From the UHGV virus genome UHGV-0024713: a stretch of DNA of 44,680 nucleotides. One strand, 5' to 3'. Below are positions 1 to 44,680 of the stretch, in pieces; position 1 is the first letter of the stretch, and each line of letters begins with the position of its first letter. The translations under genes and the position numbers were made by a program. The DNA comes from a virus. The notes below the pieces were generated by a model, which was not told where the DNA came from, ran no database searches, and worked only from the letters and a program-made list of their open reading frames with translations.

Positions 1-9
1 AAAAAAAAA

Positions 10-34
10 GCGCCGAAGCAAAATGCGACGGCGC
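10..34 (-). terminator. Terminator-like hairpin (GCGCCG-N13-CGGCGC) with A9 on its 5' side on the + strand, so it is hairpin plus U-run only when read on the minus strand
   Basis: Perfect 6-bp inverted repeat preceded by aaaaaaaaa at 1-9; no T-run follows on + strand. Confidence 0.25.
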
Positions 35-105
35 TAACCAATAAGAGACAATGAGACGGGGGTATTATTACACGCGTGCGCGCCCGTTTCAATATTCCAA
101 AGGAG

Positions 106-165: not shown

Positions 166-495
166 ATGAATATCGACGACGCAATCGAAATGTTAACTAA
201 GACTGTTTGCAGTGAGACTAGCCGGTCATGGGCGTATACCGATGCCGTGGGTGCGGTGCTATTTGAAATCGAACGTCTGCGACTTACCGAAAAAGAATTG
301 CGCGCGAAGCTGGAATTACTCAACGGTACGGCAGCCAGCAAGCTGCAAAAGCACAATGAAGAAATGGAAGAATACAAAAAACAGGTTATCCGTCTACGTG
401 AGGAAGGTAAATCCTGGGCTATGATCGCCGAGCTAACCGGAATCAACCAGAGCACCGTGCGCTCCTGGGTACGCAATAATAAAACTTCCAAATAA
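166..495 (+). CDS. Small DNA-binding protein with coiled-coil centre and C-terminal helix-turn-helix; putative regulator
   Basis: 109-aa ORF with RBS; C-terminal segment SWAMIAELTGINQSTVRSWV has HTH character; antisense ORF 144..491 is low-complexity. Confidence 0.5.
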   Translation: MNIDDAIEMLTKTVCSETSRSWAYTDAVGAVLFEIERLRLTEKELRAKLELLNGTAASKLQKHNEEMEEYKKQVIRLREEGKSWAMIAELTGINQSTVRSWVRNNKTSK

Positions 496-38113: not shown

Positions 38114-38392
38114 CTACGCGACCAATTCAGCAACCAATAAATCACAGTCGGCTATGCTGTCGATGACGCGAACGTCAGCGCCTCGGCGGGCCATTCGCTC
38201 ATGTTCACGTACCTGGTGCGGCTTCGGTTTTCCTCCTGGGCGCTTCACTTCGACGAACACTATTTTGCCGTTGATGATGATAATCAGGTCGGGCGCACCT
38301 ACGCGCCCCTCCCAGGCCATTTTGCGGCAGAATCCGCCTACCTCTTTCACCCGTCGCATCAGGTGTCTTTGGATCTTGCCCTCGGGTGTCAT
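38114..38392 (-). CDS. VRR-NUC domain nuclease
   Basis: PDLIIIINGKIVFVEVKRPGGKPKPHQ (PD...EVK) and size typical of VRR-NUC; start overlaps the polymerase stop. Confidence 0.7.
   Translation of the reverse strand: MTPEGKIQRHLMRRVKEVGGFCRKMAWEGRVGAPDLIIIINGKIVFVEVKRPGGKPKPHQVREHERMARRGADVRVIDSIADCDLLVAELVA
38118..38138 (-). promoter_or_regulatory. Promoter candidate with motif pair inside the 3' end of the VRR-NUC gene
   Basis: Minus strand ATTGGTTGCTGAATTGGTCGCG then TATAGT; -35 TTGCTG, 17-nt spacer. Confidence 0.4.
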
Positions 38393-40683
38393 TATTTCCT
38401 GTACCTGTACATGATGTCGCCTTCCGCGGCAAGCGGGAAGCCTTTCGCCCAAACCGGCAGGTCGCACATCAGCGCGCACAACTCCTCGGTTGTGTAGTCG
38501 TCAGTGTCCGGAACTTCGGTGATCAGTTCATCGTGTACCGACAGTACGATCTCATAGCCAGCGGCCTCAACACCCGGCATGGACCATGCGAGAATATCGC
38601 GGCACAGCGCCTGCACTATGTTTTCCGTCAGTTTGCCGCCGTAGGTATACTGGAAGCCCCACTGGCGCGTAGTCTGATTCTCGCCCTGGTATTTGATGCG
38701 GGTACTGGTGCGCTTCTTGCCGGTGTCTTCGGCAATCTCGGTCGTGACAGACAGCGCAATGCCTGGATAACTCATAATACGCCCCGACGGCAACTCAATT
38801 TTAAGCCACCACCCCGCTGCGTTCGGGTCGTCGCGCTCCTCGTCGAAGGTTGGGTCATGCTTCGCCTTCGTGCGAACAATCTTGAGCGCTTTCTTGCCAT
38901 CAGGGCGAACGTGCGCGCCAGCCCAGTATGCCTTGCCAGGGTTGCGAATTGCGCATAACACCGCATACTCAAGCTCGGCCCAAAATGCTACGGTCTTCGG
39001 GTGGGCCTCACGCCACATGCGTTTGATCGCGTCGCATGTCAGCCACACGTTTTTAGGCAGTATGTAGGTTGGACGCTCGTCTTTCTTGCCAGGCTTCGGC
39101 GGGCGCTTCGCTTCGTTAATGCGAGCGTACTCATAACCACGCTTCGCCGCCGCCCAAATGTGATCCGGGAATGTGCCCTTCATGACGTCTGCCATCGCGT
39201 ACAGGTCCAGGCCCAGGTTTTTAGCGAACTGCAAGAACGCCGCGACGCCGCCACCGTAGCCCAGGCCAAGCTCGCAAGCCTTCCCGATCTGACGTAAATC
39301 CTTGCGGTTGGCTTTAATGTATTCCGGATCGAGGCCGAACATCTTACCGGCAGTCTCACAATAAATATCGCGACCGGCCCTAAACACCATTAGCGCGGTT
39401 TTCTCGCCAGCGATCCAGGCAAGCCCGCGCCCTTCCACGTTGGAGTAATCCGCTACGACAAACTTCTTACCCTTAGCAGGGATAATGCACCCGCGAACGG
39501 TTGAGGCGGTTAACTTCGATATGTCATACGCCCAGTGCGCGGTGCCGCGTAACAGGGAGTTGATACCGTTGGTGAGCATGTGCGACCGGACCCAAAACGA
39601 GACGTCGCTTTCTCCTTCGCGGCGTTTAATCTTCCCTTCGTGGTCGTCACTATAATCGCCGCGCGCCAGGTTTTGAGGCTGAAAGCCTTTACCAGCCCAG
39701 CGCAGCGTGCGCTTTGCTCCTCCATACTGAAGACAACCACGGCGGCGACCGTCGGCAGACAGACCATTTACGAGCGGATTGTACTTAGTCGATGCCGTTG
39801 ATGACGCACCGAGACGCATCTCAATCAGCGCTTTGCCCTCGTCGGGGAAGTCCGGGTCTTCAAGCAAATCGTTCAGCGTGGATTTCTGCGCGTTATGGAT
39901 CGTGAACGCCGGGGCGATATCACGCAGGATTGGCAGGAAGTCGTTGCCTGTTAGCTTACCGCCGAACCGCTCCCATGCCTCCTCCTTCAATTCTTCCTTA
40001 TGCGCCTGCACCGCCTTGATCGCGGCGTTCGCCAGGTCAACGTCCACATGGAAGCCGCGGTCATTAATCAACTGGTCGATGAGCAGGATTTCGTCTTCTT
40101 TCGGAGAGTTGCCCCAGTCCGGTATGCGCCAGTAGACTTCGCGCATTGCCACAATATCCAGCGCGGCGTAGCGCAGGAATTTGGCCCACTCTTCAGGGTG
40201 TGTCTCGCGCGTGTAACGGCGGATTTTGTAGGTTTTAGGGGTAGGCTTACAGAACCGTTTGATCAGCGCCTTGCCGGCCTTATCCTTTGCGTGTTCCGCG
40301 TCAACGCCCAGTACCTGACACTGCATATCGAGGCTACCCGGCAGCGCGTGGCGGAATGCCATAATCATGGTATCCTCGATCTGGCTTACCGGCAGGTCGA
40401 TGCCCCACTTCTCACGGATAACCAGGCGGTCGAACAGGAGGCCGTTAGCCATCACTATTTTAGCCTTCTTGCGCGATACCCGGCGCAGCGCCTTGCGTAG
40501 TTCGCGCGGCATTGTGGGGGACTCAGTGGCATCCCATGTCTGCACGCGGCCCTCGTCGATGGCGTAGGTGCAAATCATAATCTCGGTTGATGGGTGTTCT
40601 GCGTAGGCGTACGCGCCTACTTTCTTCAGGTCCACACCGCTAAATGTCTCGGTGTCGAGAAACAGGCGTTCGAAGTCTTTCAT
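38392..40683 (-). CDS. Family A DNA polymerase with 3'-5' exonuclease domain
   Basis: Exo I FLDTETFS; motif A DYSNVEGR; motif B RQIGKACELGLGYGGG; motif C VLSVHDEL. Confidence 0.9.
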   Translation of the reverse strand: MKDFERLFLDTETFSGVDLKKVGAYAYAEHPSTEIMICTYAIDEGRVQTWDATESPTMPRELRKALRRVSRKKAKIVMANGLLFDRLVIREKWGIDLPVSQIEDTMIMAFRHALPGSLDMQCQVLGVDAEHAKDKAGKALIKRFCKPTPKTYKIRRYTRETHPEEWAKFLRYAALDIVAMREVYWRIPDWGNSPKEDEILLIDQLINDRGFHVDVDLANAAIKAVQAHKEELKEEAWERFGGKLTGNDFLPILRDIAPAFTIHNAQKSTLNDLLEDPDFPDEGKALIEMRLGASSTASTKYNPLVNGLSADGRRRGCLQYGGAKRTLRWAGKGFQPQNLARGDYSDDHEGKIKRREGESDVSFWVRSHMLTNGINSLLRGTAHWAYDISKLTASTVRGCIIPAKGKKFVVADYSNVEGRGLAWIAGEKTALMVFRAGRDIYCETAGKMFGLDPEYIKANRKDLRQIGKACELGLGYGGGVAAFLQFAKNLGLDLYAMADVMKGTFPDHIWAAAKRGYEYARINEAKRPPKPGKKDERPTYILPKNVWLTCDAIKRMWREAHPKTVAFWAELEYAVLCAIRNPGKAYWAGAHVRPDGKKALKIVRTKAKHDPTFDEERDDPNAAGWWLKIELPSGRIMSYPGIALSVTTEIAEDTGKKRTSTRIKYQGENQTTRQWGFQYTYGGKLTENIVQALCRDILAWSMPGVEAAGYEIVLSVHDELITEVPDTDDYTTEELCALMCDLPVWAKGFPLAAEGDIMYRYRK

Positions 40684-40908: not shown

Positions 40909-41691
40909 TTAACGGCGGCGACGTTTACGTGGTGCTTCGTCGTCGTCTTCGTCCTCATCTTCGTCATCGCGGGGCTTACGACGCTTGCGAGGTTTTGCAT
41001 CTTCCTCATCGTCATCGTCATCGCGGCGCTTTGATTTTTTGGACTTGCGCGGCTTGTCATCTTCGTCATCGTCATCACGACGTTTTGACTTCTTAGACTT
41101 GCGCGGTGCTTCGTCTTCGTCGTCGTTGTCCAGGTCTTCATCAGAGCAAGAAGACCCGCCACCCCCGAAGGCTTCCCCGTCTTCACGGAAGCGCAGCCCC
41201 AGCAATCCCGCACCGAGTCCCTTGCCGTTGGTGTTGTTCCACGCCCAAATATCGAGTGACACGTTGCAATAGCAACCGGAATAGATTTCCTGGCCTTCGA
41301 TCTCGTCGCCTTCAACCGTCAGACCTTGTTCAGTCTGCTTCTCGCCAAGTGACGTTTGGATGTTCGGCTGTTTGAACGATTTGGCGTTGATGTACAACAT
41401 GCCTTCAAACTCTTCGGTTACTTCGTCGCGCTCGTCACCGTCGCGAACTGCGCATTCCTTAGAGTCCTGTGCGTAATGGCGGTCCATCCACTTATCGGCA
41501 TTCTTCTCGGATTTCAGCTTGTCGGTGAGCACTGCGCGCGCTGCCGCTTCCACTTTGTCCACCTGCGGATCTTCTTTATCCAGAAGAATCACGGCACGGT
41601 ATGCCGGTTTTTGTCCATCCTGTTTAGGGGTGTCACGTTCCCAAATTTTCAGGAAACATACGCGCACATTTTTCAGGTTGACTTTAGCCAT
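40909..41691 (-). CDS. ssDNA-binding-like protein (DUF2815-type by recollection) with long alternating acidic/basic C-terminal tail
   Basis: Start at internal ATG with GAGGA RBS; N-terminus MAKVNLKNVRVCF; C-terminal 85 aa made of PRKSKKSKRR / DDDDEDD repeats; position beside the polymerase. Confidence 0.45.
   Translation of the reverse strand: MAKVNLKNVRVCFLKIWERDTPKQDGQKPAYRAVILLDKEDPQVDKVEAAARAVLTDKLKSEKNADKWMDRHYAQDSKECAVRDGDERDEVTEEFEGMLYINAKSFKQPNIQTSLGEKQTEQGLTVEGDEIEGQEIYSGCYCNVSLDIWAWNNTNGKGLGAGLLGLRFREDGEAFGGGGSSCSDEDLDNDDEDEAPRKSKKSKRRDDDDEDDKPRKSKKSKRRDDDDDEEDAKPRKRRKPRDDEDEDEDDDEAPRKRRRR
41005..41120 (-). repeat. Tandem DNA repeats (about 55-57 bp units) encoding the charged C-terminal tail
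   Basis: tcatcgtcatcgtcatcgcggcgctttgatttttt... repeated with variation. Confidence 0.6.
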
Positions 41692-41746
41692 TTTCCAATT
41701 CCTCATTTTCACATGTATCGGGGTTATTGTGAGCCACCCCGTTCGG

Positions 41747-41781: not shown

Positions 41782-42024
41782 TCAAGCATTTTCATTAAAA
41801 AGATTTCGGGTCACGTAGTTGGTGGCGTTCTCGATCCAGCTTAGCGGCGGGCGTTCGATGTTCTTTTCCACCCAGGCGACGGCAACTTCGCTATAGCCGT
41901 CATCCAGCCAGCGGGTCGGATGGCGAATCATCCACGCCACCATTAACACGCCTTGCACGCAATGCAGGATAAAGCCCAGCGCGCCGAGCAAAAACATCAA
42001 TAAGATTGCGAATACTTTATTCAT
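41782..42024 (-). CDS. Small membrane protein (80 aa)
   Basis: N-terminal hydrophobic helix; overlaps the upstream gene stop. Confidence 0.45.
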   Translation of the reverse strand: MNKVFAILLMFLLGALGFILHCVQGVLMVAWMIRHPTRWLDDGYSEVAVAWVEKNIERPPLSWIENATNYVTRNLFNENA

Positions 42025-43447
42025 TGCTTAAGTCCTCGTCAGTAGCTTCCGACCACGCAGGGCGAGGGTCGTCGATTGGTGCTAATACCGGTTTGGCGGG
42101 TGCGCGCGTGATTTTATCACACAGCTTCGCCCACACTTTTGGTTTTTCGTCCTTCAATACCTTCTCTGCATCCGTAGGGCTGAGCAATGTTTCTTTGTAC
42201 ATCACATCGCGCTTGATCCGTGCCTTCGTGAAGATTTCAATCACTTCGCTCTCGTCCGCCCACTTGCGGATTCCTTCCTTACCGGCAACCATCTTGAGGC
42301 CAAGCGATTCGCCATCACCCGCCATTACAGCCTTAAACACCGCGGACTCGATAGCCTTGATGTGCTGGCGCATTGCGTCCAGGCCTTCATAAGCCTTGCG
42401 CAGTTCCGCGGCGGTCATAGCGCCTGGTGTGGCTTCCTTCTTGCCACGCTTCGCACGTCGTGCCGCCTTCCTGGCTTCGCGGGCCATATTGCGGTCATGG
42501 TTGGCGCATTCTTCCTCTGTCGCAATACTCACGTCGTCGCCCAGGTCTTCGTCGGTTGCCGTTGGGGGTGTCATAGTGTCGATTGCGGCCTTAGCGCGGG
42601 CACTACACTGATCCGCAAATCGGCACCACTGGCACGCATCAACGCTGGGACGGAAGTCGGCACGGGTAAGTCCCCTCTTGCCTCGGGAATACGCCTCCAG
42701 TGAGGCAATAGCGCGCTTGGATGCAAACTTCGCGAATATCTCCAGCGCTTCTACCGAAATATCCCACTCCGACGCCCCGCCGCAATACGGCTGGAAGATA
42801 ACCAGGCGAACGGTCGTAATGTCGTACATAGTTTGCAGCTTGCGCAGCAGTCCGAGCGCGTACAACATAAGCTGTTTGTTCTCTTTCGCCTCGACCTTAT
42901 GCCGCCCGGTCTTCAGGTCGCCAACAATCAGCATGTACGTCCCATCGGTCTTTTTCATGACCATGACCATATCGGCAGTACCGAACGTTTTAATCCTGTT
43001 GCCGTCGATCTCGTAGCCTGAGTGAAGGACGCGGGTCAGATCGGCGCGCATCTCAAGCTGGACAAACTCCGCCACTTCGAGGAGCGGTCGCCAGTGGTCG
43101 ATGTACGCGTCGCACTGTTTCACCATGTCGTCGTTGACCAGTACGCCGCCTTTCGGTGCTTTCGGGTGTGCCTTTACCGGCCCCTTTCCTTCGTTCTCGA
43201 CGTAGCACCCTTTATACGTCTTCGCGGTTATCAGCTTCTCACCGGCGATAATGCGGTTTAGCACCACTTCAGATACGGTGTGCATACTCGTACCGTTAAT
43301 CGCGGCTTGCCCGGATTCGTTCGGGATATCTTTTTCCACCACCAGGGCCGCAGGGCAACCCATCCACTTTTTAGCACCGGATGGCCCAAGTAATGAGTGT
43401 TCTGTATTGCTACCGGATTGCGTTTTACGTTTTGGTTTAATCGCCAT
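42017..43447 (-). CDS. PD-(D/E)XK nuclease, Cas4/RecB-like (DUF2800-type by recollection) with C-terminal Cys cluster
   Basis: 476 aa; CQWCRFADQC Cys cluster typical of Fe-S Cas4-like nucleases; position in the replication operon. Confidence 0.6.
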   Translation of the reverse strand: MAIKPKRKTQSGSNTEHSLLGPSGAKKWMGCPAALVVEKDIPNESGQAAINGTSMHTVSEVVLNRIIAGEKLITAKTYKGCYVENEGKGPVKAHPKAPKGGVLVNDDMVKQCDAYIDHWRPLLEVAEFVQLEMRADLTRVLHSGYEIDGNRIKTFGTADMVMVMKKTDGTYMLIVGDLKTGRHKVEAKENKQLMLYALGLLRKLQTMYDITTVRLVIFQPYCGGASEWDISVEALEIFAKFASKRAIASLEAYSRGKRGLTRADFRPSVDACQWCRFADQCSARAKAAIDTMTPPTATDEDLGDDVSIATEEECANHDRNMAREARKAARRAKRGKKEATPGAMTAAELRKAYEGLDAMRQHIKAIESAVFKAVMAGDGESLGLKMVAGKEGIRKWADESEVIEIFTKARIKRDVMYKETLLSPTDAEKVLKDEKPKVWAKLCDKITRAPAKPVLAPIDDPRPAWSEATDEDLSNE

Positions 43448-43626: not shown

Positions 43627-43877
43627 TATTTCGTCTCCCAGCGGTCAATCGTTCTTGCTTCGGATGCAACCGCAAAGCGAACATATTCCAGATTGGAGTC
43701 CGCCCAAATATAAAAGTCGGGGTTAGTAAAGGTGGTGCGCTTAATTTGCGCGGGGGTGTTACGGCGTTTATCTATTACGGCAACTCGTGACTGAAAGCTG
43801 CCGATGCGTTCGAATAGCCAATAGTACGGGCGCTGGTCGCGGGAGTCCACCGCCTCAATTAGCGTGAAGCGTGCCAT
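43626..43877 (-). CDS. Hypothetical protein (83 aa)
   Basis: GAGGA RBS; first gene after the upstream terminator. Confidence 0.5.
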   Translation of the reverse strand: MARFTLIEAVDSRDQRPYYWLFERIGSFQSRVAVIDKRRNTPAQIKRTTFTNPDFYIWADSNLEYVRFAVASEARTIDRWETK

Positions 43878-43890
43878 TGTCTCGTCCTCT

Positions 43891-43917
43891 AAAAATAGGC
43901 CCGCAGATTAGCGGGCC
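43891..43917 (-). terminator. Intrinsic terminator (minus strand) after the charged-repeat protein gene
   Basis: Minus strand GGCCCGC-taatct-GCGGGCC followed by TATTTTT. Confidence 0.6.
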
Positions 43918-43925
43918 GGATAATA

Positions 43926-44441
43926 TTAATCTTCCAGTTCGAAATAAGTTTCGACGATTTCTTTAAGATCTTTGTGGAAGTCTTCGACGTCTTCATCTTC
44001 CAGCTTGGCGATTGATTTGATCTCGAACGATTCCAGCAGGTCGTCAAATTCGTCGTTCGCGTCGTCGTCGTCACCACCGGCAATAATAGCGGCATATTGT
44101 TTGATTTCGTCGCGCATCTCCGCCAGCGGATCGGCATCTTTCTTGCCTTTGCCTTTCGCCGGGGCTTTTTTAGATTTAGCCGGTTTTTCGTCTTCGGCAT
44201 CATCGTCGTCATCTTCTACGACTTCTTTTTTGGCCTTACCTTTCGCAGGGGCTTTTTTAGATTTAGCCGGTTTTTCGTCTTCGGCGTCATCGTCGTCATC
44301 TTCTACGACTTCTTTCTTGGCCTTAGACGGCTTCTTGTCTTCCTGCTTACCAACGGCAGCGCCAACGGTTTCATAATGCTTAGCGATGGTTTCCAGTGCT
44401 ACTACGCCGCGAGTAATCAGGTTTACGATTTGTTCAAACAT
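43926..44441 (-). CDS. Highly charged tandem-repeat protein (171 aa) with alternating poly-Asp/Glu and Lys/Ala-rich blocks
   Basis: Two near-perfect 28-aa repeats KKEVVEDDDDDAEDEKPAKSKKAPAKGK; GGAGA RBS; own terminator. Confidence 0.65.
   Translation of the reverse strand: MFEQIVNLITRGVVALETIAKHYETVGAAVGKQEDKKPSKAKKEVVEDDDDDAEDEKPAKSKKAPAKGKAKKEVVEDDDDDAEDEKPAKSKKAPAKGKGKKDADPLAEMRDEIKQYAAIIAGGDDDDANDEFDDLLESFEIKSIAKLEDEDVEDFHKDLKEIVETYFELED
44150..44320 (-). repeat. 84-bp tandem duplication (2 copies) inside the charged-repeat gene
   Basis: ...cgccggggcttttttagatttagccggtttttcgtcttcggcatcatcgtcgtcatcttctacgacttc... repeated with 2-3 substitutions. Confidence 0.7.
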
Positions 44442-44646
44442 GTTTTATATCTCCGATTGGTTAAGTTTAGGTGTCGGCAGTTAACTTCGTCGGTGGCCTT
44501 AACATATTGCCAGGTTACGCGTTCTCCCGTTCGGGTAGTGGACCTGGTTATATAATCACGGTTGGGAATCCTGACACTTCGATCCGGCCCCTGCGTTGCC
44601 CCTCTCCAGTTTGCGTCCTGCATCCTGTCGACGAGGTGCATATTAG

Positions 44647-44656
44647 ATTGGTTGCA
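44647..44656 (+). promoter_or_regulatory. Motif copy ATTGGTTGCA near the window end
   Basis: Exact 10-mer; a variant GATTGGTTAAG also at about 44454-44464. Confidence 0.35.
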
Positions 44657-44680
44657 TGAGGGAGTCAACAACTAATTTCA

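What the first reader, a model, noticed from the sequence alone, without database searches (positions are those of the whole stretch)
43926..44441. Stand-alone highly charged protein with a perfect 28-aa tandem duplication
A 171-aa protein with its own RBS and terminator consists of blocks of five or more consecutive Asp/Glu alternating with histone-H1-like KPAKSKKAPAKGK segments, encoded by an 84-bp tandem repeat. Candidate roles include DNA mimic or anti-restriction, nucleoid remodelling, or a DNA-condensing virion component. No obvious named family fits.
Basis: partly seen in the sequence, partly recalled or inferred. Interest (0 to 1): 0.6.

Follow-up and report, generated by a model that had tools for sequence, protein, structure and literature searches.

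The report
Conserved acidic partner of phage nuclease
The repeat-bearing charged protein is real, and it belongs to a widespread, unnamed family of small phage proteins whose gene always sits just upstream of the phage's recombination nuclease, single-strand-binding protein and DNA polymerase, so it is most likely a helper of DNA replication and recombination rather than a virion or anti-restriction protein.

Summary
The window is a Dhillonvirus (HK578-like coliphage) genome. The ORF is real: 43926-44441, minus strand, 171 aa, with a GGAG ribosome-binding site and its own intrinsic terminator. The tandem repeat has a period of 87 bp (29 aa), not 84. 81 of 87 bases and 28 of 29 residues match between the two copies.

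The protein is not just charged blocks. It has a conserved N-terminal helix, a disordered, charge-balanced linker that holds the repeat, and a confidently folded three-helix C-terminal domain with net charge about -20.

The linker varies from 14 to 78 aa among 98 relatives. The two end domains are under strong purifying selection (pN/pS 0-0.17).

Relatives occur in phages of Gamma- and Betaproteobacteria, Firmicutes and Actinobacteria (hhalign 94.6%). The gene always sits between the divergent primase-helicase gene and the DUF2800 nuclease, gp2.5-like SSB and PolA genes. In Gram-positive phages its stop overlaps the nuclease start.

No database names the family, and I found no paper that describes it.

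Best reading: an unrecognised fourth component of the published duf2800-gp2.5-polA module, acting as a non-catalytic adaptor or regulator. Main rival: a Gam-like inhibitor of a host nuclease. Anti-restriction and virion roles are disfavoured. Function remains untested.

The parts
43926..44441 (-). CDS of the 171-aa protein (stop codon at 43926-43928)
   Evidence: ORF list and sequence; phrog_3127 E 4.6e-54; 106 homologues; purifying selection on both end domains
44349..44441 (-). Conserved N-terminal helix segment, aa 1-31 (MFEQIVNLITRGVVALETIAKHYETVGAAVG)
   Evidence: Nearly invariant across 98 Dhillonvirus-type clusters. AF2 helix 2-27 at pLDDT 79-91 with the deep alignment. pN/pS 0-0.17.
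44139..44348 (-). Disordered, charge-balanced linker, aa 32-101, made of alternating acidic and Lys/Ala/Pro-rich basic blocks
   Evidence: AF2 pLDDT 51-59 with no secondary structure. Net charge about 0. Charge segregation z = 6.0 against shuffles, and length 14-78 aa among relatives.
44232..44318 (-). Tandem repeat unit 1 (aa 42-70, KKEVVEDDDDDAEDEKPAKSKKAPAKGKA)
   Evidence: Tandem Repeats Finder period 87; in-register comparison
44145..44231 (-). Tandem repeat unit 2 (aa 71-99, KKEVVEDDDDDAEDEKPAKSKKAPAKGKG)
   Evidence: 6 of 87 nt differ from unit 1, five of them synonymous
43929..44138 (-). Folded acidic C-terminal three-helix domain, aa 102-171, net charge about -21
   Evidence: AF2 helices 105-122, 126-138 and 149-167 at pLDDT 96-98. 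pN/pS 0.03-0.16. Profile A4 is homologous to the Gram-positive phage proteins in A5, hhalign 94.6%.
44451..44454 (-). Shine-Dalgarno GGAG, 9 nt upstream of the ATG
   Evidence: Read directly from the sequence. The spacer is 2 nt shorter in StarDew, which alone puts the upstream ORF in frame there.
43888..43917 (-). Intrinsic-terminator-like hairpin (7 G-C pairs) plus T tract, directly after the stop and just before the next gene (ATG at 43877)
   Evidence: Terminator scan
44640..44668 (-). Sigma-70-like promoter (TTGACT-17-TAATAT), about 190 nt upstream of the ATG
   Evidence: Promoter scan. It matches the promoter annotated in HK578. The leader is not unusually structured (z = +1.07).
42017..43447 (-). 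DUF2800 PD-(D/E)XK nuclease, the conserved downstream partner gene
   Evidence: Pfam DUF2800 3.2e-66 and PDDEXK_1; synteny
40909..41712 (-). gp2.5-like SSB/annealing protein (Enc34_ssDNA-bd) with its own repeat-expanded tail of alternating acidic and basic blocks
   Evidence: Pfam 6.2e-32; tail sequence; 54-bp tandem repeat at 41001-41126; charge segregation z = 10.1

Best explanation
The 171-aa protein is the Dhillonvirus member of a widespread, unnamed family. This family is a fourth, so far unrecognised, component of the phage 'duf2800 nuclease - gp2.5-like SSB/annealase - PolA' replication/recombination module.

It has no catalytic motifs. It consists of a partner-binding or oligomerising N-terminal helix and a small three-helix C-terminal head, very acidic in proteobacterial phages, joined by a flexible linker of free length.

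The inferred mechanism is as follows. The protein is made first and probably in excess over the downstream genes, because its own terminator follows it. It then acts as a non-enzymatic adaptor or regulator. Its head docks on a basic, DNA-binding surface or tail of a module protein, most likely the DUF2800 nuclease it is translationally coupled to in Gram-positive phages, and/or the gp2.5-like SSB. This would control how these proteins are loaded on DNA ends and single-stranded DNA.

The 87-bp duplication simply lengthens the spacer by one acid/base unit. It is one state of a copy-number polymorphism (0-3 units) and is not the functional core.

Shown here: the anatomy, the conservation, the homology across phyla and the fixed gene position. 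Inferred: the binding partners and the regulatory role.
For: Genomic identity: the window is a Dhillonvirus, 98.5% identical to Shigella phage StarDew.

Anatomy:
- The N-helix and C-domain are nearly invariant, while the linker runs from 14 to 78 aa with 0, 1, 2 or 3 acidic blocks in 6, 38, 49 and 5 of 98 cluster representatives.
- AF2 gives the C-domain pLDDT 96-98, the N-helix 79-91 and the linker 51-59.
- Purifying selection is strong: pN/pS 0-0.17 with pS up to 0.6.

Family breadth: a profile search of 1.84 billion representative proteins found 72 clusters, all small (52-241 aa), and all 46 sequences inspected share the three-part architecture.

Synteny. The order 'primase-helicase <- small HTH gene <- divergent promoter -> this gene -> 0-15 small genes -> DUF2800 -> Enc34_ssDNA-bd -> PolA' holds in:
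- Dhillonvirus;
- Cornellvirus;
- Eiauvirus;
- Serratia phage Tsm2;
- Achromobacter phage AchV4;
- distant metagenomic relatives at 20-30% identity.

Gram-positive branch:
- Gardnerella vB_Gva_AB1 ORF5, Corynebacterium SamW gp39 and Streptococcus Javan38_0034 have the same architecture.
- Each stop codon overlaps the start of the DUF2800-type nuclease, which is followed by the gp2.5-like SSB and PolA.
- hhalign of C-domain profile A4 against these three gives probability 94.6%, E 6.7e-8, and 85% with subgroup alignment A3.
- tblastn finds this branch in 87 phage records.

Published context: the three-gene duf2800-gp2.5-polA module is described in PMC8093625. Acidic tails docking on replication partners are established for T7 gp2.5 and for Enc34 ORF6 (PMC5686142).

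The SSB of this same operon carries a matching tail of alternating acidic and basic blocks.
Against: - No interaction was tested and none could be modelled.
- hhalign against lambda Bet gives 0.05%, and against the C-terminal fragment of the Sak3 annealase 8qe9 gives 2.5%.
- In Dhillonvirus two small genes and a terminator separate the gene from the nuclease, so coupling is looser than in Gram-positive phages.
- Repeat copy number in this protein does not co-vary with repeat copy number in the SSB tail (n = 8, rho 0.50, p 0.20).
- Being the first gene upstream of an exonuclease/annealase pair is also where lambda gam and T7 5.9 sit, which fits the rival equally well.
Confidence: 0.45

Rival explanations
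1. Functional analogue of Gam or T7 gp5.9. The acidic helical head mimics DNA and blocks the host end-processing nuclease (RecBCD in enterobacteria). This would protect the linear phage DNA and hand recombination over to the phage's own nuclease and annealase.
For: - It is the first early gene, sits directly upstream of the phage exonuclease and annealase genes, and has a strong RBS and its own terminator. From established knowledge, gam-bet-exo in lambda and 5.9-6 in T7 have this layout; the lambda order was also seen.
- The C-domain has net charge about -21 in 70 aa, and acidity is conserved in the proteobacterial branch (mean -13).
- P2 Old, which fires when RecBCD is inhibited by Gam or gp5.9, restricts dhillonviruses (bioRxiv 10.64898/2026.07.10.737580).
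- The one gene that some records call 'nuclease inhibitor gamma' (window 166-495) is in fact an HTH_23/Sigma70_r4 regulator. So the one gene annotated as Gam is not Gam (I did not scan the rest of the genome for a RecBCD inhibitor).
Against: - The family follows the nuclease-SSB-PolA module into Firmicutes and Actinobacteria phages. Their hosts have different end-processing enzymes (from general knowledge). Acidity is not conserved there: +2 in Gardnerella, -6 in Streptococcus.
- The end domains show very strong purifying selection and near identity across phages of E. coli, Shigella, Salmonella and Sodalis. This looks more like a conserved internal partner than an arms-race gene.
- The Old trigger in dhillonviruses was not identified in that paper.
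Confidence: 0.25
2. DNA-binding architectural or nucleoid protein. The Lys/Ala/Pro-rich blocks (KPAKSKKAPAKGK), which resemble histone H1 tails or AT-hooks, bind DNA, for example at the nearby origin and promoter region. The N-helix oligomerises the protein, and the acidic head recruits or autoinhibits.
For: - The basic blocks resemble H1/SPKK-type tails.
- Distant relatives often carry K/R-x-R-G-R/K motifs just before the C-domain.
- One relative (P0153) has an N-terminal region I judge by eye to resemble a winged helix.
- The gene abuts the long divergent control region.
Against: - Each basic block is matched by an acidic block. The linker is net about 0 (median +2 over 98 relatives) and the whole protein is -22.
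- Some relatives have almost no linker (P0098, 115 aa), so the basic blocks are dispensable for the conserved function.
- The window protein has no canonical GRP AT-hook core.
Confidence: 0.1
3. Ocr- or ArdA-like anti-restriction DNA mimic that blocks type I restriction-modification enzymes.
For: It is a highly acidic early protein and the first gene after an early promoter.
Against: - The gene occurs in about 150 Dhillonvirus-type records. Yet dhillonviruses are described as sensitive to type I and II restriction-modification systems relative to Nonagvirus and Seuratvirus (BASEL paper).
- There is no sequence or fold match to Ocr or ArdA.
- The fixed position in a replication module across phyla is not typical of accessory anti-restriction genes.
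Confidence: 0.04
4. Virion-internal, DNA-condensing or ejected protein.
For: Only the alternating charged composition. One relative carries the legacy name '13.88 kDa late protein' (Salmonella phage MB78).
Against: - The gene lies in the early replication/recombination string, far from the structural genes, and that position is conserved in every lineage examined.
- A net charge of -22 is the wrong sign for condensing DNA.
Confidence: 0.02

Closest known systems
The duf2800 - gp2.5 (DUF2815) - polA phage module (Steczkiewicz et al. 2021, PMC8093625)
   Same: The gene is physically part of this module in every lineage examined. It sits upstream of the DUF2800 nuclease, and in Gram-positive phages its stop overlaps the nuclease start.
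   Different: In the passages read, the published description lists three genes, and this small protein is not part of it. No database annotates it.
Lambda Red-beta C-terminal domain and lambda Orf (NinB): the small helical adaptor that binds lambda Exo and the SSB tail
Lambda Gam and T7 gp5.9 (RecBCD-inhibiting DNA mimics)
   Same: Both are small, helical, acidic early proteins encoded directly upstream of the phage's own exonuclease and annealase genes.
   Different: No sequence or fold match was found. The family extends to phages of Gram-positive hosts, where acidity is variable.
Acidic C-terminal tails of T7 gp2.5, Enc34 ORF6 and bacterial SSBs
   Same: Each is an acidic element of the replication machinery that docks on basic surfaces of partner proteins and competes with DNA (PMC5686142).
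   Different: Here the acidic element is a folded domain on its own polypeptide, tethered by a charge-balanced linker. The dhillonvirus SSB tail itself is unusual, with alternating acidic and basic blocks that end in RKRRRR.
phrog_3127 and related PHROGs 18562, 5053, 7721, 408 and 18196; the '13.88 kDa late protein' of Salmonella phage MB78
   Same: Direct sequence membership: E 4.6e-54 to phrog_3127. The MB78 protein is a structural and sequence match.
   Different: These entries carry no function, so membership says nothing about mechanism.

Membership tests
Unnamed family (phrog_3127 and relatives) | Full-length sequence match to the family profile | tested here: met
   phrog_3127 E 4.6e-54 over residues 1-171; 106 homologues; 72 representative clusters
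Unnamed family (phrog_3127 and relatives) | Three-part architecture: N-terminal helix, disordered charged linker, three-helix C-terminal domain | tested here: met
   AF2 models; alignments
duf2800-gp2.5-polA replication/recombination module | Co-located in one transcription direction with a DUF2800 nuclease, a DUF2815/Enc34-type SSB and a family A DNA polymerase | tested here: met
   In the window: DUF2800 at 42017-43447, Enc34_ssDNA-bd at 40909-41712, DNA_pol_A at 38392-40683. The same order holds in more than 10 lineages.
duf2800-gp2.5-polA replication/recombination module | Physical or functional interaction with the module's proteins | not testable with these tools
   No complex prediction or experiment is available. 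The overlapping stop/start with the nuclease gene in Gram-positive phages is suggestive only.
DNA-mimic proteins (Ocr, ArdA, Gam, gp5.9, Arn) | Sequence or fold similarity to a solved mimic | tested here: not met
DNA-mimic proteins (Ocr, ArdA, Gam, gp5.9, Arn) | Dense negative charge on a folded domain | tested here: met
   The C-domain has net charge -20/-21 in ~70 aa and pI 4.05. The proteobacterial branch averages -13. The spatial charge pattern was not analysed.
DNA-mimic proteins (Ocr, ArdA, Gam, gp5.9, Arn) | Binds and inhibits a DNA-binding enzyme | not testable with these tools
   This needs biochemistry or genetics.
Ocr/ArdA anti-restriction | The carrier phage resists type I restriction | tested here: not met
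   From literature only: dhillonviruses are described as sensitive to type I/II restriction compared with Nonagvirus and Seuratvirus.
Histone H1-like / AT-hook DNA-binding proteins | A net-basic tail or a GRP-core AT-hook | tested here: not met
   Linker net charge is about 0 and the protein is -22. The window protein has no RGRP core. RGR-like motifs occur only in some distant relatives.
Red-beta C-terminal domain / lambda Orf fold | Detectable sequence homology | tested here: not met
   hhalign of A4 against lambda Bet gave probability 0.05%.
Red-beta C-terminal domain / lambda Orf fold | Specific structural similarity | tested here: inconclusive
Virion structural proteins | Encoded in the structural/late module | tested here: not met
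   The gene lies in the early replication operon. Virion proteomics was not available.

The most novel reading that the evidence does not exclude
The family is a universal, non-catalytic hub of the duf2800-gp2.5-PolA machinery. Its linker of alternating acidic and basic blocks, together with the similarly patterned, repeat-expanded tail of the phage SSB, would drive multivalent electrostatic assembly of nuclease, SSB and polymerase on phage DNA as a condensate-like replication/recombination factory. Tandem-repeat copy number would tune the valency.
Probability: 0.12. Interest if true: 0.7.

Novelty: new variant of a known kind. Interest (0 to 1): 0.45.

Why it matters
The duf2800-gp2.5-polA module is one of the commonest replication/recombination cassettes in tailed phages and prophages of both Gram-negative and Gram-positive bacteria. 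Its SSB and polymerase are the triggers of several defence systems: Retron-Eco8, Borvo and Hachiman.

If a fourth, position-fixed and strongly conserved protein belongs to the module, three things follow:
- current models of how these phages process DNA ends and load their annealase are incomplete;
- attempts to use gp2.5-type annealases with DUF2800 nucleases for recombineering may need this partner;
- a large set of 'hypothetical proteins' across many phage genera gains a testable context.

If instead it is a new RecBCD-type inhibitor, it would explain why P2 Old restricts dhillonviruses.

Tried and rejected
**Database and structure searches that gave no functional lead**
- Pfam, NCBIfam and PDB sequence searches, with the single sequence and with a profile, gave only compositional or sub-threshold hits.
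- A search with the C-domain profile for fusions to other domains found none.

**Literature leads that point to other genes**
- Ksap1, the KpAvs2 trigger, is 74 aa and lies elsewhere in the genome.
- The RAZR trigger is the portal protein.
- The Retron-Eco8, Borvo and Hachiman triggers are the SSB and the polymerase.
- Anti-Tmn is ORF35 and has a beta-sheet domain.
- The Evangelion paper only lists Dhillonvirus as a target.
- The Retron-Eco7 trigger of Dhillonvirus 'phage98' could not be identified because no supplement is held.
- A search for the MB78 'late protein' paper found nothing.

**Other tests that led nowhere**
- Copy number of repeats in this protein does not co-vary with that in the SSB tail.
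- The 190-nt leader is not unusually structured (z = +1.07) and has no Rfam match.
- The N-terminally extended reading frame used in some public records is rejected. It is out of frame in the window and depends on a 2-nt spacer difference.
- The search for related loci failed with the broad alignments, and tblastn of the most distant subgroup found no cultured phages.

Full report
**What the window is.** The region around the finding is 98.5% identical to Shigella phage StarDew and 89-95% identical to the other listed Dhillonvirus genomes, the HK578-like siphoviruses of E. coli, Shigella and Salmonella. The window is a complete, circularly permuted genome. Its two ends fall inside the long intergenic region between the finding's gene and the divergently transcribed HTH-regulator and helicase-primase genes.

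**Checking the observation.** The ORF is real: 43926..44441 on the minus strand, ATG start, 171 aa.
- GGAG lies 9 nt upstream of the ATG.
- A hairpin of seven G-C pairs followed by TATTTTT lies immediately after the stop.
- Tandem Repeats Finder reports a period of 87 bp, 2.2 copies and 93% matches.
- In register, the two 29-aa units (aa 42-70 and 71-99) differ at 6 of 87 bases. Five of these are synonymous, so 28 consecutive residues are identical.

The protein has net charge -22 and pI 4.5. The central linker is almost exactly neutral, and the last 70 residues carry -21.

**Anatomy.** Alignment of 106 homologues shows three parts:
- a nearly invariant N-terminal segment (aa 1-31);
- a hypervariable Lys/Glu/Asp/Ala/Pro linker;
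- a nearly invariant C-terminal 70 residues.

Among 98 Dhillonvirus-type cluster representatives the linker is 14-78 aa, with a bimodal length distribution. It holds 0, 1, 2 or 3 acidic blocks in 6, 38, 49 and 5 cases, and it stays close to neutral (median +2). The window's duplication is therefore one state of a common copy-number polymorphism. The linker's charge segregation exceeds all 5000 shuffles (z = 6.0).

AlphaFold2 with a 50-sequence alignment gives:
- helix 2-27 at pLDDT 79-91;
- no structure in residues 28-104 (pLDDT 51-59);
- three helices (105-122, 126-138, 149-167) at pLDDT 96-98.

Pairwise comparison of five dhillonviruses gives pN/pS of 0-0.17 for the N segment and 0.03-0.16 for the C-domain, with synonymous divergence up to 0.6. 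This is an expressed, strongly constrained protein.

The long N-terminal extensions annotated in some public records are artefacts. The upstream ORF is out of frame in the window, and it is in frame in StarDew only because the RBS-ATG spacer is 2 nt shorter there.

**Family.**
- PHROGs places the protein in phrog_3127, function unknown (E 4.6e-54).
- Pfam, NCBIfam and PDB sequence searches give nothing significant.
- A profile search of 1.84 billion representative proteins finds 72 clusters, all small (52-241 aa); all 46 sequences inspected share the architecture. A few have two C-domains, and one has an extra N-terminal region that by eye resembles a winged helix.
- Across 50 diverse members the mean net charge is -15, the C-domain averages -13 and the linker about 0.
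- None of the related PHROGs has a function, and no Pfam family is shared.

**Genomic context, the decisive evidence.** In the window the gene is the first of the leftward early string: this gene, an 83-aa gene, a 59-aa gene, the DUF2800 PD-(D/E)XK nuclease, an 80-aa gene, the gp2.5-like SSB (Enc34_ssDNA-bd), a 56-aa gene and PolA. Opposite it lie an HTH regulator and the AAA_25 helicase-primase.

The same arrangement holds in:
- Cornellvirus;
- Eiauvirus;
- Serratia phage Tsm2;
- Achromobacter phage AchV4;
- metagenomic relatives only 20-30% identical.

It also holds in Gram-positive phages. Gardnerella vB_Gva_AB1 ORF5, Corynebacterium SamW gp39 and Streptococcus Javan38_0034 each have an N-helix, a Glu/Pro/Lys/Thr-rich linker and a matching C-domain. 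Each stop codon overlaps the start codon of the DUF2800-type nuclease, which is followed by the gp2.5-like SSB and the DNA polymerase.

Profile-profile comparison of the proteobacterial C-domain alignment with these three sequences gives probability 94.6%, E 6.7e-8. The 'MSLE' subgroup alignment gives 85%. tblastn finds this branch in 87 phage records, all annotated as hypothetical.

A 'duf2800-gp2.5-polA module' is described in the literature as a three-gene unit (PMC8093625). The present family is a fourth member that is conserved in position and has gone unrecognised.

**Literature.** None of the Dhillonvirus papers I could read assigns a function to this gene.
- Ksap1 is a different 74-aa protein.
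- The RAZR trigger is the portal protein.
- The Retron-Eco8, Borvo and Hachiman triggers are the SSB and polymerase.
- Anti-Tmn is ORF35.

Two statements bear on the rivals. Dhillonviruses are sensitive to type I and II restriction relative to Nonagvirus and Seuratvirus. P2 Old, which is activated by RecBCD inhibitors such as Gam and gp5.9, restricts dhillonviruses, although the trigger was not identified. The gene that some records call 'nuclease inhibitor gamma' (window 166-495) is an HTH_23/Sigma70_r4 regulator.

**Interpretation.** The position is conserved across bacterial phyla. The gene is translationally coupled to the nuclease in Gram-positive phages. Selection on the two end domains is strongly purifying, and acidity is variable in the Gram-positive branch. 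Together these favour a partner inside the phage module over a host-specific target.

I therefore read the protein as a non-catalytic adaptor or regulator of the nuclease/SSB machinery, with the repeat-bearing linker as a spacer of free length (confidence 0.45). That the family is a fourth module component is much better supported than the mechanism.

The main rival is a Gam/gp5.9-like inhibitor of the host end-processing nuclease (0.25). It fits the gene's position, its earliness, its charge and the Old phenotype.

The remaining readings are weaker:
- A DNA-binding architectural role is weak because charges are balanced and the linker is dispensable in some relatives (0.10).
- An Ocr-like anti-restriction role conflicts with the restriction sensitivity of the genus (0.04).
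- A virion role conflicts with the gene's location and with the sign of its charge (0.02).

**A related observation.** The gp2.5-like SSB of the same operon ends in a tail of alternating acidic and basic blocks:

...DDDDEDDKPRKSKKSKRRDDDDDEEDAKPRKRRKPRDDEDEDEDDDEAPRKRRRR

This tail is encoded by a 54-bp tandem repeat, and its charge segregation is z = 10.1. Similar tails occur in Cornellvirus, Eiauvirus and Tsm2 SSBs. Two of the three distant metagenomic relatives examined, and the Gram-positive phage SSBs, end in the classical acidic tail with an aromatic residue near the end. Block number varies among dhillonviruses (2, 3 or 4) but does not co-vary with the copy number in the 171-aa protein (n = 8, rho 0.50, p 0.20). 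This keeps a multivalent electrostatic or condensate reading possible, but nothing here supports it directly.

**Verdict.** The tandem duplication itself is an ordinary length polymorphism of a disordered spacer. The interesting result is that the protein belongs to a widespread, unnamed family tied to a major phage replication/recombination module. Its function is untested. I score interest at 0.45 and classify it as a new variant of a known kind (small accessory proteins of phage recombination modules).

Noticed in passing
window 40909-41712 (minus strand); repeat at 41001-41126: The gp2.5-like SSB has a C-terminal tail of alternating acidic and Arg/Lys blocks that ends in RKRRRR, instead of the classical acidic tail with a terminal aromatic residue. 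The tail is encoded by a 54-bp tandem repeat. Block number varies among dhillonviruses: EP23 has 2, HK578 has 3 and most have 4.
   Followed up: partly
window 1-100 and 44640-44680 (minus strand; the intergenic region spans the window ends): A second promoter-like site (TTGAAA-16-TAATAA, about 95-62) is followed by a hairpin GCGCCG...CGGCGC plus a run of nine T (40-1), and then by the promoter-like site at 44668-44640. This could give a ~55-nt RNA, or act as an attenuator in front of the 171-aa gene. The arrangement is conserved in StarDew with a changed loop.
   Followed up: no
window 166-495 (plus strand): This 109-aa gene is called 'transposase' or 'DNA recombination nuclease inhibitor gamma' in public records. 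Pfam shows an HTH_23 / Sigma70_r4_2 helix-turn-helix, so it is probably the early regulator. The Gam annotation is unsupported.
   Followed up: yes
window 44423-44671 (minus strand); L002 3527-4270: Public records extend the protein N-terminally by 60-76 residues (StarDew gp47 at 247 aa, Opt212 at 231 aa). That upstream ORF is out of frame in the window. Its frame depends on a 2-nt difference in the RBS-ATG spacer, so the extensions are annotation artefacts.
   Followed up: yes
L026 3726-3839 and L027 3727-3852 (slur06, EP23): Some dhillonviruses carry about 130 extra bases with a 37-41 aa ORF between this gene and the next one. This accounts for the longer locus in those genomes.
   Followed up: no
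Proteins P0111, P0112, P0149, P0153: Some family members have two tandem C-terminal domains. One (P0153) has an N-terminal extension of about 100 aa that looks like a winged helix-turn-helix by eye; this was not tested.
   Followed up: no
Literature: PMC12640716: Escape mutants of Dhillonvirus 'phage98' against Retron-Eco7 map to an unnamed gene of unknown function whose product activates Retron-Eco7 when expressed in E. coli MG1655. The gene's identity could not be retrieved here and might or might not be this family.
   Followed up: partly
L021 1456, L023 4162, L024 4170: In Gardnerella, Corynebacterium and Streptococcus phages the family gene's stop overlaps the start of the DUF2800-type nuclease (for example ATGA). 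This implies translational coupling.
   Followed up: yes
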